Part shown: piece by piece, positions 28,690 to 32,543 of the stretch
Numbering within the stretch: position 1 is the first letter of the stretch
How the letters are laid out: every line of letters begins with the position of its first letter
Notes under the pieces: generated by a model
Seen by the model: the letters and a program-made list of their open reading frames with translations, nothing else
Database searches by the model: none
What the model was told of the DNA's origin: nothing
Position numbers and translations under genes: made by a program
Source of the DNA: Octopus vulgaris
Lineage: Eukaryota
DNA: 64,000 nucleotides
Assembly: GCA_951406725.2 (NCBI GenBank)
Contig: OX597818.1
Span: 5,704,001 to 5,768,000, forward strand
Reading direction: 5' to 3'

Positions 28690-29255
28690 TTTCTACTCAA
28701 GGCACAAGTCTCGAAATTTTGGGGGAGGGGGCCAGTCGATTAGATCGAGCCAGTACGCAACTGGTACTTAGTTTATCGACTCCGAAAGGAGTCGACCTGG
28801 GCGGAATTTGAACTCAGAACGTAGCGGCAGATGAAATACCTATTTCTTTACTACCCACAAGGGGCTAAACACAGAGAGTACAAACAAGGACAGACAAACG
28901 GATTAAGTCGATTATATCGACCCCAGTGCGTAACTGGTACTTATTTAATCGACCCCGAAAGGATGAAAGGCAAAGTCGACCCCGGCGGAATTTGAACTCA
29001 GAACGTAGCGGCAGATGAAATACCTATTTCTTTACTACCCACAAGGGGCTTAACACAGAGAGTACAAACAAGGACAGACAAACGGATTAAGTTGATTACA
29101 TCGACCCCAGTGCGTAACTGGTGCTTAATTTATCGACCCCGAAAGGGTGAAAGGCAAAGTCGACCTCGGCGGTATTTGAACTCTGAATCCCGCGGCGGAC
29201 GAAATACCGCTAAGCATTTCCCTGGCGTGCTAACATTTCTGCCAGCTCGCTGCCT
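28690..29255 (-). mobile_element. Tandem trimer of SINE family B
   Basis: ~183-bp period (28808 vs 28991); a single complete tRNA-like head at ~29255. Confidence 0.88.
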
Positions 29256-30611
29256 TTATGCAATTATATATTCTTCACATAAAGTGTTTCACGCGCACAC
29301 ACTCATATATTAAAAAAGTTTGCAAATTTATTGAATTTAAAATTATTCCAGGCATATATATTAAATTTTGCTAAATTATCGTAGAATAAATTGTGTTCAC
29401 AGGAAGAGTAACATTTTTACAGTTGATAACCAAATGAAATTAATTCAGATTTGATAGATTTCCATATAATACACAAAAGATTAAACGTAATGTACTGTAA
29501 GTAGGTATTAATTTGAATATTCACAAGATTTCAATTTCCTCTCGTTTGAAGCAAAATATCATTGCAGAAAATTGCATCAGTAAATAAAATTTGGAATTAC
29601 CATTGTACCTTTTAAAACATGTCAGAGTTACTTCTTCAAGTCAAGAATATTCCATTGAAAGATATCACCGCACAGACAGTTTTGCATATGATAAATCTAA
29701 TAAGATAGTGTTTCTCGATAAGAAGTATGTGTCTATATACATAATATATACATGGTGTGGTAATAAATATATGTGTGTTTGTCAGCGCATATGAATGTGC
29801 GTGTGCCCGAAAGATTTTGCTATTCAATAACTCTCCCTAAATACAAGAAAACTACGTCTATCCTCCATGGTGTCAATTTCGTTGAAGTATTTAGATAATG
29901 CAAACTTCAACCATTTTAAAGATATTCAAGTCAAAGAGAAAGCAAGCATACGACAGAGGGATAGAGAGAGAGAGAGAAGAGAGGGGAGAGCAAGAGGGAG
30001 TGTGTGAAGAGTGATGGAAAAAAAGTGTAAATTGACATTTCATTTCATAGAAAGAGGGTATATGGTTAAGCAACCTAGTGAAAATTTGTATTAAATAGAA
30101 GCAACATTGAGGAACAATGTTCTTGAAGATGAAAACTACCGCTGCTATTTTCTAGATTGGGAAGTGTTTCAACATAAAACCGCTGTGCTACAGCAGATTG
30201 CAGAATACACACACTCAAACAGGCAGAAAGCAATATATACTACCGAGAAAGCTAGAGAAGGCCTATACAGTGACGCTAAGATTACAAAATAGAGCGGACA
30301 AATTTTACAGACTACTGCACCAAGATAAGAAAGAAGCGATTGGAAATAGTAGTTATGTTAATGTTGACTGCCTGGATATGTGTCCGTGTACGTGTGTGCG
30401 TGTGTCCGTATCCGTATGTACCCGTATCCGTGTACCCATATTTGTGTGTGTGTGTGTGTGTGTGCGCGTGTGTGTGTGTGTGTGTGTGCGCGTGCGTGCG
30501 TGTGTGTGCGCGTGTGTGTGTGTGTATGTAAAATGTAATAGAGTACAGCCTGCGATATTTTCAGGCCGTCGGTGACTGAGGCTAAAAAGCCTGCCTGTTT
30601 GGTGTAAATAA

Positions 30612-30642
<31 letters not shown>

Positions 30643-30649
<7 letters not shown>

Positions 30650-30888
30650 TTTATTTTAAGCAGCAGAAAATTCAACAAAATCTGTTACTCTGAGTTTCTC
30701 GTTGCCGTTCATCAGACAGTTTTTGCTAGTTTTTCTAGCAAAAACTGTCTGATGAACGGCAACGAGAAACTCAGAGTAACAGATTTTGTTGAATTTTCTG
30801 CTGCTTAAAATAAAGTATATATTACTCTACCACTGGTATTTGAGTACTCTTTTTTCCACCTTGTTTCACATTTATGTGTTTACTCCGG

Positions 30889-30890
<2 letters not shown>
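30643..30890 (+). mobile_element. Miniature PLE-derived fold-back: ~87-bp perfect inverted arms, T5 loop and unpaired tail, in (TA)n
   Basis: 30643-30729 is the reverse complement of 30735-30821; each arm contains a hammerhead. Confidence 0.9.
30743..30783 (+). ncRNA. Minimal type I hammerhead ribozyme (mirror copy on minus strand at 30681-30721)
   Basis: CTGT-CTGATGA(30749)-A-CG-GCAA-CG-A-GAAAC-TCAGA-GTA(30776-78)-ACAG: canonical core, GNRA-capped 2-bp stem II, near-palindromic helix III. Confidence 0.85.
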
Positions 30891-30920
<30 letters not shown>

Positions 30921-31733
30921 TATATATACAATTGCAGCATGGAATGTGTTTATAACCCATTTAAAAACACACAAAAACCTTTAGATTCACTTCAACATTC
31001 AAATTCCTTGCTGCACGGAATTTTGTCAGTGAACAGTTCGCGGTTTCAAAGCTACGAAAATATTTTGACAAATTAAATTTAAATGTTGAGGTGAATCAAA
31101 CAATTTTTGTGTTAAATTTAGGCACCAATTTTTACCACCGCAAACCTTACCCTTTGGTGTAGACAAAGCCGGATATAAGGTTCCGATATTTTGATAGTCT
31201 AGTAGGCTATCATGATATCTATTAGTCATCGGAGCAGATGTGTCGGCGGTGTCGCCGATACAATACATGAGTAATACAGGTGTAAAAGGAGCGGCGACAA
31301 TAAACGTTGCTTCAATTTATCTCCTTTTAATTTGATTGAATGACACGTCACCGTTTAATATTTTCCCACCTTTGTCTAGAATACAGCTACAAGTCCGAAA
31401 AGATTTAATTCTGGATGATCGAAGACTACATTCCTAATATTGTCTTCGAAGTTTAGGTAACTAGGTCACTATTCTCAATTATTTCTCCCCAACTATAATA
31501 TCTACTAACCACTAAATTCAAATAGGTTCGATACTTCATAGACTATTTTCTAAATTCATTCTGGCAAAGATATAGCAGTTGTTTTGTCCTTTGTGTTTGA
31601 AGTCTATACAGTCATCTGTTGAAAAGAGTTTCTTTGCAATGATGTAATGTATTCATTAATTAATTAAAAGAATCGCTTGAAACGGCTGTAATGAATTGAC
31701 ACCTGTACATCTCTTCTTACTCTATATATATAA

Positions 31734-31848: not shown

Positions 31849-31894
<46 letters not shown>

Positions 31895-31905
<11 letters not shown>

Positions 31906-32543
31906 AAACAAGTCAAAATAGAAAATGCTAAAATAATTTTATAAAGAACATTTCAGTACCGGTTTCGCTCATTTTGAGACCTTTTCAACTGTAACGATTA
32001 AATAATTAAATTTAGAAAAATTAGAAGAAAAGTTTTTTTAAAGGAATATTTGTATAGTTTTCAAATTTTAGTGGCATTCTGCCTTTCTCTGACTCCCTTG
32101 TTTGCACTTGTGTGTTCCAGGTCGTTGTGAATTCTTGGTAGGGTAGAAGGAGAAGAGGGATGATGAGGAGAAGGGGTGGAGAAATTTGGGAGTACCTCAA
32201 AATACGACAATCAAGGCACTCCCAAATTTCTCCACCCCTTCTCCTCATCATCCCTCTTCTCCTTCTACCCTACCAAGAATTCACAACGACCTGGAACACA
32301 CAAGTGCAAACAAGGGAGTCAGAGAAAGGCAGAATGCCACTAAAATTTGAAAACTATACAAATATTCCTTTAAAAAAACTTTTCTTCTAATTTTTCTAAA
32401 TTTAATTATTTAATCGTTACAGTTGAAAAGGTCTCAAAATGACCGAAACCGGTACTGAAATGTTCTTTATAAAATTATTTTAGCATTTTCTATTTTGGCT
32501 TGTTTTTTCATATATATCAACTCATGTGTTCCTTTTCACCCTT

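What the first reader, a model, noticed from the sequence alone, without database searches (positions are those of the whole stretch)
30643..30890. Minimal ribozyme fold-back: ~250-bp insertion that is little more than a hammerhead on each strand
Seen: a perfect 87-bp inverted repeat (T5 loop) in (TA)n, each arm carrying a canonical-core minimal hammerhead (CUGAUGA, CG-GCAA-CG stem II, GAAAC-UCAGA-GUA). Known: PLE pseudo-LTRs carry minimal type I hammerheads and often form inverted 5' ends. Inference: this is either an extreme PLE truncation or a separately amplifying non-autonomous, retrozyme-like unit. A transcript from either strand would contain one ribozyme plus its perfect antisense, so self-cleavage would compete with hairpin formation.
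Basis: partly seen in the sequence, partly recalled or inferred. Interest (0 to 1): 0.72.

Follow-up and report, generated by a model that had tools for sequence, protein, structure and literature searches.

The report
Head-to-head Penelope retrotransposon stub
This 240-base hairpin is one of roughly 600 similar stubs of an abundant Penelope-like jumping gene in this genome, not a separate ribozyme element, and the copies' shared anatomy suggests that each was likely built on landing from two short DNA copies of the front end of one RNA, one primed from each cut DNA strand.

Summary
The palindrome is real: perfect 88-bp arms, T5 spacer, a minimal type I hammerhead motif on each strand, in (TA)n. 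Both arms match the pseudo-LTR of a protein-coding Hydra-clade Penelope-like element (PLE), 97-99% identical to a full-length copy. About 600 short fold-backs turn within the same ~12 nt. Their junctions differ (29 types in 58 loci), and the window's T5 junction occurs only 3 times, on different haplotypes and tail polarities. So the unit is built anew at each insertion, not copied as a retrozyme. One arm ends at +84 and the other at +155 (56 of 58 have exactly one tail, none two). Short arms pair with short, long with long (2 of 47 mixed, ~23 expected). Turn-arounds pile up at a likely transcription start (~600) rather than at the ribozyme cut site (25), though 70 lie just upstream. Best model: twin target-primed reverse transcription running off the RNA 5' end. 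In the hairpin the ribozyme is predicted not to fold. The layout is published; I found the mechanism in no paper searched. This scan has reported it before on other DNA.

The parts
30608..30648 (.). Left (TA)n target microsatellite
30649..30729 (-). Tail-less arm: PLE pLTR positions +84 to +4 (+1 = A of CCATTC, L081:7539), joined to (TA)n right after AATAAAG
   Evidence: 98.8% to L081
30682..30719 (-). Minimal type I hammerhead motif, minus strand (predicted cut between 30686 and 30685)
   Evidence: mirror of the plus-strand motif
30730..30732 (.). Three junction bases not in the parent element; likely a short snap-back addition. With native +2/+3 TT they form the 'T5 loop'
   Evidence: L001: gap 3; this junction occurs 3 times in the genome
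30733..30815 (+). Tailed arm, paired part: pLTR +2 to +84
   Evidence: 97% to L081
30745..30782 (+). Minimal type I hammerhead motif: stem I CUGU/ACAG, core CUGAUGA 30749-30755, 2-bp stem II with GCAA loop and A.A closing pair, GAAA, palindromic stem III ACUC-A-GAGU, predicted cut after GUA at 30778
30816..30888 (+). One-sided PLE tail, +85 to +155 (71 nt in the parent, 73 here); in the parent it runs on into the ORF
30889..30928 (.). Right (TA)n target microsatellite

Best explanation
The insert is two head-to-head pieces of the pseudo-LTR of a Hydra-clade Penelope-like retrotransposon, ending at +84 and +155 in a (TA)n repeat, and it was likely made in one insertion event by twin target-primed reverse transcription. 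Shown: parentage, the two fixed 3' ends, one tail per insertion, junctions that differ from copy to copy, turn-arounds clustered at +1 to +9, and both arms sharing source variants. Inferred: the element's protein nicks both strands of (TA)n; each nick primes cDNA on the same RNA at one of two internal start sites (+84, +155, each followed by 4-5 nt partly complementary to TA repeats); when priming is in the leading pLTR both cDNAs run off the RNA 5' end near +1; their 3' ends are joined through short self-complementary bases (CTAG, A/T runs) or brief snap-back synthesis. The stub is a dead-end by-product. Its ribozymes are passengers predicted to be locked in the hairpin.
For: Parent: ORF-bearing copies at 93-98% identity end at the same two points; full-length partial tandem L081; Hydra marks. 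One tail in 56 of 58 symmetrically selected loci, none with two; 106 of 112 in a larger, partly tail-biased set. Two cDNAs are needed: the tail-less arm reaches further 5' in 12 of 58 simple short junctions (GCTAG-A5/A6 types) and by more than 50 nt in 5 of 18 long pairs, which copying of the tailed strand cannot give. Same template class: 27 short-short, 18 long-long, 2 mixed against ~23 expected, P=4e-11 (hand classification, test). Haplotype at +76 agrees between arms in 109 of 112 pairs; long pairs share 19 locus-private variants. 5' pile-up: 948 strand matches, about 590 loci, no arm beyond -1 in the 48 of 58 loci that could be mapped, against 25 loci at the ribozyme cut site. +1 lies in a YYANWYY initiator-like word (consensus recalled). 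In vitro, a PLE protein nicks and extends both strands and starts at two internal sites that bound the tail (PMC11167929).
Against: The wall is not absolute: 70 loci (looser pattern, more subfamilies) turn at -4 to -17, mostly on short palindromes such as GATATC or CAATTG, so local palindromes partly set the turn. None of the 5 full-length units seen starts at +1 (L081, L185, L186 twice, L192). No data locate the transcription start: only contigs were available. Shared private variants show a shared source locus, not one RNA molecule; there is no A>G excess (2 of 19). 17 of 65 census clusters were single-armed or had a partner without a 3' end and were left out of the pair test. Haplotype concordance could also reflect subfamily waves.
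Confidence: 0.72

Rival explanations
1. Single-cDNA snap-back: one cDNA folds back on a short palindrome, copies itself and jumps to the other target end (self-priming, as proposed for Adineta PLEs).
For: Junctions sit on self-complementary words and carry short templated inserts; arms share variants; PMC3846280 reads such junction palindromes as self-priming.
Against: The tail-less arm often extends further 5' than the tailed arm (12 of 58 short, 5 of 18 long), and long arms are often very unequal. A self-copy cannot hold sequence its template lacks at both ends.
Confidence: 0.1
2. Short arms are transcribed from an internal promoter and re-mobilised in trans, SINE-like, with a new junction made at each landing (the surviving form of the first reader's non-autonomous idea).
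For: D. virilis Penelope has an internal promoter in the pLTR (PMC2377424); short arms keep +1/+9 to +155; the +76T haplotype is commoner among short arms (63 of 184 in the two main haplotypes) than long (12 of 82).
Against: No haplotype of any size is private to short copies; no junction is inherited; a few short arms carry native bases upstream of +1. In Anolis the RNA needs ORF sequence downstream of the start sites, which stubs lack.
Confidence: 0.09
3. Stubs are longer palindromic insertions that later lost their centre by deletion at short palindromes.
For: Long palindromes are unstable (general knowledge); junctions fall on short palindromes.
Against: It does not explain about 590 junctions at +9..-3 against 70 and 25 in windows of like width, where palindromic words also exist; short copies are 97-100% identical to the parent, no older than long ones.
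Confidence: 0.06
4. A fixed fold-back unit (retrozyme- or MITE-like) that copies itself with its loop, or an assembly artefact.
For: Hundreds of same-sized copies turning in one region.
Against: The T5 junction occurs 3 times with different haplotype and polarity; 29 junction types in 58 loci; arms of other copies differ by private mutations; contigs of independent runs hold head-to-head joints of this family.
Confidence: 0.03

Closest known systems
Hydra clade of C-terminal-EN Penelope-like elements (Craig et al. 2021, PMC8557442), incl. Hydra-1_Obim
   Same: RWK, DKT, CxCx5C linker, no CCHH, CxxC and CxH around the conserved E and N, hammerhead, (TA)n target. The supplement's Hydra alignment reads like the parent ORF by eye, and the entry filed just before Hydra-1_Obim has the same stem I and palindromic stem III.
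   Different: Apparently not Hydra-1_Obim itself: different N-terminus and hammerhead; two short search strings from this family were absent from the supplement text. Unit about 3.39 kb against 'generally <3 kb'. No tree was built.
Typical EN+ PLE insertion: inverted 5'-truncated pLTR with a one-sided tail (PMC8557442 Fig. 2 legend; PMC3846280)
   Same: Head-to-head inverted arms, tail at one end, microsatellite target, junction palindromes.
   Different: The tail is 71 nt rather than 30-40; about 60% of two-armed insertions in the census are ORF-less stubs turning at one place; the passages read give no such counts and ascribe the tail to endonuclease resolution or the inversion to self-priming.
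Opposite-strand dual minimal hammerheads (Cervera and de la Pena 2014, PMC4209133)
   Same: Two min-HHRs on opposite strands close together, ascribed to truncated PLEs; palindromic helix III; dimer-type.
   Different: They report 100-700 bp spacing in Schistosoma; here about 35 nt separates the cores' 5' ends, and stem II is only 2 bp with an A.A closing pair.
Anolis Poseidon PAc mechanism (Frangieh et al. 2024, PMC11167929)
   Same: Two internal reverse-transcription starts bounding the tail; both strands nicked and extended; ribozyme cleavage not needed.
   Different: In the parts read it does not address inverted insertions or run-off at the RNA 5' end, and it reports no homology to target DNA, whereas both sites here have partial TA complementarity.
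Animal non-LTR retrozymes (bioRxiv 10.64898/2026.07.22.740005)
   Same: Non-coding, type I hammerhead, PLE pLTR origin.
   Different: Retrozymes are head-to-tail tandems with a hammerhead in each unit; this is head-to-head with non-inherited junctions.
LINE-1 twin priming (search listing only; mechanism recalled)
   Same: Both target strands prime cDNA on one RNA and give an inversion.
   Different: L1 copies two non-overlapping RNA segments; here both cDNAs cover the same segment and give an inverted duplication.

Membership tests
Hydra-clade PLE (parent element) | Single ORF, RT followed by C-terminal GIY-YIG endonuclease | tested here: met
   L081 ORF, 727 codons open, RT YRDD and GVVY..YTG; Pfam gave no hit at E<=0.1, so this rests on motifs and on the published alignment
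Hydra-clade PLE (parent element) | RWK motif, DKT in place of DKG, no GxKF/Y | tested here: met
   LRWKAF and SDKTRN; criteria
Hydra-clade PLE (parent element) | CxCx5C linker; CCHH absent; CxxC and CxH flanking E and N | tested here: met
   CNCKNESSC; no Cys inside the GIY-YIG core; CRLCLLEK and LNQRSELMNLCRH
Hydra-clade PLE (parent element) | Hammerhead in the pLTR and (TA)n insertion | tested here: met
Hydra-clade PLE (parent element) | Length generally under 3 kb | tested here: not met
   Unit about 3.39 kb owing to a long 3' UTR; described as a tendency, not a criterion
Hydra-clade PLE (parent element) | Placement in the Hydra clade on an RT tree | not tested
   Reference sequences were seen only in paper text
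EN+ PLE inverted insertion | Inverted 5'-truncated pLTR copy with tail at one end | tested here: met
Non-LTR retrozyme | Head-to-tail tandem of hammerhead-bearing units | tested here: not met
   Head-to-head pair; definition
Non-LTR retrozyme | Propagates as its own unit | tested here: not met
   Junction not inherited; haplotypes shared with long copies
Non-LTR retrozyme | Self-cleaved circular RNA | not testable with these tools
   Only contigs of runs not on record as RNA
Minimal type I hammerhead | Core CUGANGA, GAAA, NUH; helix I; palindromic helix III | tested here: met
   (stem III dimer -8.8 kcal/mol)
Minimal type I hammerhead | G10.1-C11.1 closing pair of stem II | tested here: not met
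   A.A here; A-U in an older subfamily, A.G in another; consensus
Minimal type I hammerhead | Self-cleavage | not testable with these tools
   Folding only

The most novel reading that the evidence does not exclude
These stubs are the Penelope equivalent of retroviral strong-stop DNA. A protein dimer primes both target strands at two fixed sites in the leading pLTR of one capped RNA; copying the whole element would need a jump from the RNA 5' end to the trailing pLTR, or a circular RNA, and the ~600 stubs are the failed jumps. This would explain the tail, the inverted ends and the partial tandems at once. A cap-derived extra C would account for the GCTAGA(A/T)TCTAGC junction (9 of 58 loci against 1 for the AATT join).
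Probability: 0.3. Interest if true: 0.7.

Novelty: new member of a known kind. Interest (0 to 1): 0.42.

Why it matters
The object itself is an ordinary by-product of a known class of retrotransposon. Its value is as a record. How PLEs make inverted ends and one-sided tails is called an open problem in PMC8557442, and this family gives countable rules: one tail per insertion, short with short and long with long, either arm may be the longer, turn-around at a likely start site and not at the ribozyme cut. A young family with long open ORFs makes these rules testable in the existing in vitro PLE assay. It also warns ribozyme and miRNA annotators: these hairpins hit miRNA models below threshold and carry hammerhead cores predicted not to fold.

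Tried and rejected
Rfam: no hammerhead hit; miRNA-family hits only reflect the perfect hairpin. Pfam on the parent ORF: nothing. Ribozyme cut site as the turn-around: 25 loci, mostly not at the cut itself; rejected. Continuation past the tail by pattern: the 30 of 113 matches fetched ran into host repeats or unrelated flanks; the real continuation came from L081. RNA evidence: no RNA holder listed; contigs of guessed-RNA runs are deeper over +1..+155 than upstream, but contig depth cannot rank parts, no splice joint and no start was seen; inconclusive. No contig bridged the window's own junction. Wholesale homogenisation of arms after insertion: not supported (79 one-arm against 21 shared private variants). 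Literature searches (listings of at most 20 each) showed no paper stating twin priming or 5' run-off for PLEs; subscription papers (for example Arkhipova 2006) are not held and the preprint's supplements are closed, so absence from print is not established.

Full report
Observation. The palindrome is there: 88 perfect base pairs at 30642-30729 and 30735-30822 around TTTTT, between (TA)n tracts, with the hammerhead words on both strands. The insert is not symmetric. The right arm runs on to 30888, while the left arm's element sequence stops after AATAAAG and meets (TA)n at 30648. Rfam does not recognise the motif.

Parent element. The window lies at G000:C5:5704001-5768000 in a 2.8-Gb genome; earlier scan notes call it an octopus, which I did not establish myself. 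A search with the right arm gave 1156 candidates, 40 scored, 37 with an adjoining inverted match; the query held junction bases, so this set is biased. Two of the 30 fetched loci were longer (L011, L012). Following them upstream gave 30 loci with the 3' end of an RT plus GIY-YIG ORF, ending at the same two places as the window's arms. L081 is a full-length partial tandem: truncated copy, pLTR, tail, ORF of 727 open codons, 3' UTR, pLTR, tail, (TA)n. The window's arms are 97-99% identical to its pLTR. The protein shows the Hydra-clade motifs listed in section 11 of PMC8557442 and by eye follows the published Hydra alignment, but it appears to be a family other than Hydra-1_Obim. I number from +1 = A of CCATTC (L081:7539). 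The window's arms are +4..+84 and +2..+155; the hammerhead core is +18..+47.

Family census. The 34-nt core has 3674 exact matches. Fold-backs with both arms reaching about +9 and at most 25 bases between give 948 strand matches; the first 100 are 62 loci, so about 590 loci. I fetched 58 of these 62. 56 have exactly one tail, 2 none, none two; there are 29 junction types, mirror-image forms occur, and the three commonest types occur on both +76 haplotypes. In the 48 of 58 that could be mapped, 45 long arms end at +155 and 44 short arms align through +84 into TATAT; no arm passes -1. The window's T5 junction occurs 3 times: one sibling is of another subfamily, the other has its tail on the opposite arm. 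This refutes copying of a fixed unit.

Unbiased set. I fetched all 65 clusters from the first 100 core matches on C1 and classified them by hand: 28 short-short (27 after dropping L189, an apparent duplicate of L188), 18 long-long, 2 mixed (one arm only about 30 nt past +1), and 17 single-armed or with a partner lacking a 3' end (left out). Independent choice of template predicts about 23 mixed of 47; P=4e-11. In 5 of 18 long pairs the tail-less arm reaches more than 50 nt further 5', in 8 the tailed arm does, 3 are near equal and 2 unclear. Arms agree at +76 in 109 of 112 pairs (that set includes tail-biased loci and a few duplicates). Eighteen long pairs share 19 locus-private variants against 58 on one arm only; 96 short pairs share 2 against 21. 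So the arms come from one source, were made separately, and have since drifted independently.

What sets the turn. Windows of like width hold about 590 loci at +9..-3, 25 at the ribozyme cut site and 70 at -4..-17 (looser pattern). The cut site is therefore not the cause. +1 fits an initiator word (recalled consensus), and D. virilis Penelope starts inside its pLTR (PMC2377424 passages), so I infer a transcription start. Against a clean wall: the 70 upstream junctions sit on short palindromes, and none of 5 full-length units begins at +1. No usable RNA data were found.

Mechanism. In vitro a PLE protein nicks and extends both strands and starts at two internal sites that bound the tail, and ribozyme cleavage is dispensable (PMC11167929, parts 1-2 of 4). 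Applied here, by inference: one target strand primes at +155 and the other at +84; both cDNAs run to the RNA 5' end; the ends are joined by 1-4 nt of microhomology or short templated additions. In the window, the tailed arm reached +2, gained three bases and met the other arm at +4. A single self-priming cDNA, the reading offered in PMC3846280 (passages), cannot give pairs in which each arm holds sequence the other lacks.

Ribozyme. The core is intact and stem III is palindromic, as in dimer-type minimal hammerheads, which show no activity as monomers and low activity as dimers (PMC4209133, parts 1-2 of 4). Stem II is closed by A.A. The predicted chance of the monomer fold is about 1e-4 in a lone arm and about 1e-56 in the hairpin. 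Read-through from either side makes the antisense arm first, so there is no real competition. Only outward transcription from the junction could free a ribozyme; this is untested.

Artefact. Other copies have unequal arms and private mutations, and contigs of independent runs hold head-to-head joints of this family, including a T6 variant of this junction. The exact locus was not bridged.

Comparison and verdict. Inverted truncated pLTRs with a one-sided tail are described in PMC8557442 (passages, section 11, supplement searches), and opposite-strand hammerhead pairs in PMC4209133. Retrozymes are head-to-tail tandems (bioRxiv 10.64898/2026.07.22.740005, part 1 of 5), which this is not. Six searches showed no paper stating the twin run-off model, within the limits of the library. 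Earlier notes of this scan reach the same reading on other DNA; I had stated mine before seeing them, and they are not independent support. Verdict: a new member of a known kind, ordinary as an object, moderately interesting as a countable record of PLE insertion. Interest 0.42.

Noticed in passing
window 31894-32542: A second head-to-head palindrome in (TA)n (304-bp arms, 16-nt spacer, 25-nt one-sided tail) from another abundant family (892 candidates). Among 30 fetched loci the inverted partners found mostly end at the same tail-less point, and linked ORF pieces carry a CxxxxCxxC linker and a Cys-containing GIY-YIG, Neptune-like by eye. It has a hammerhead-like motif with a U3-A8 core, a variant described in PMC4209133.
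   Followed up: partly
window 28750-29208: About 2.5 tandem copies of a 184-bp unit; resembles a cephalopod SINE-type repeat from recall, not tested.
   Followed up: no
window 30816-30822: This copy reads TATATAT after AATAAAG where 155 of 160 tailed arms read CATAT; it matches the target-derived bases of the other arm and may be a local conversion between arms.
   Followed up: partly
L081:4191-4323 (+45 to about +177): A possible intron in the leader: GT at +45 and a pyrimidine tract before an AG upstream of the ORF's Met; D. virilis has an intron 46 nt after its start. No splice joint was seen in contigs.
   Followed up: partly
L239, L102-L116: Sister subfamilies carry CCGAUGA or CCGACGA cores and A.G or A-U closing pairs of stem II, so the hammerhead varies between subfamilies.
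   Followed up: partly
L185, L186, L196: Head-to-tail tandems of the full 3.35-kb unit inside head-to-head insertions; L186 has tandem units on both arms.
   Followed up: partly
L159, L162, L171, L182: Insertions whose tailed arm is only 20-57 nt (tail sequence alone), joined to a normal tail-less arm; consistent with separate priming at +155.
   Followed up: partly
L188/L189 and L195: Apparent inverted segmental duplications that carry a stub twice.
   Followed up: no
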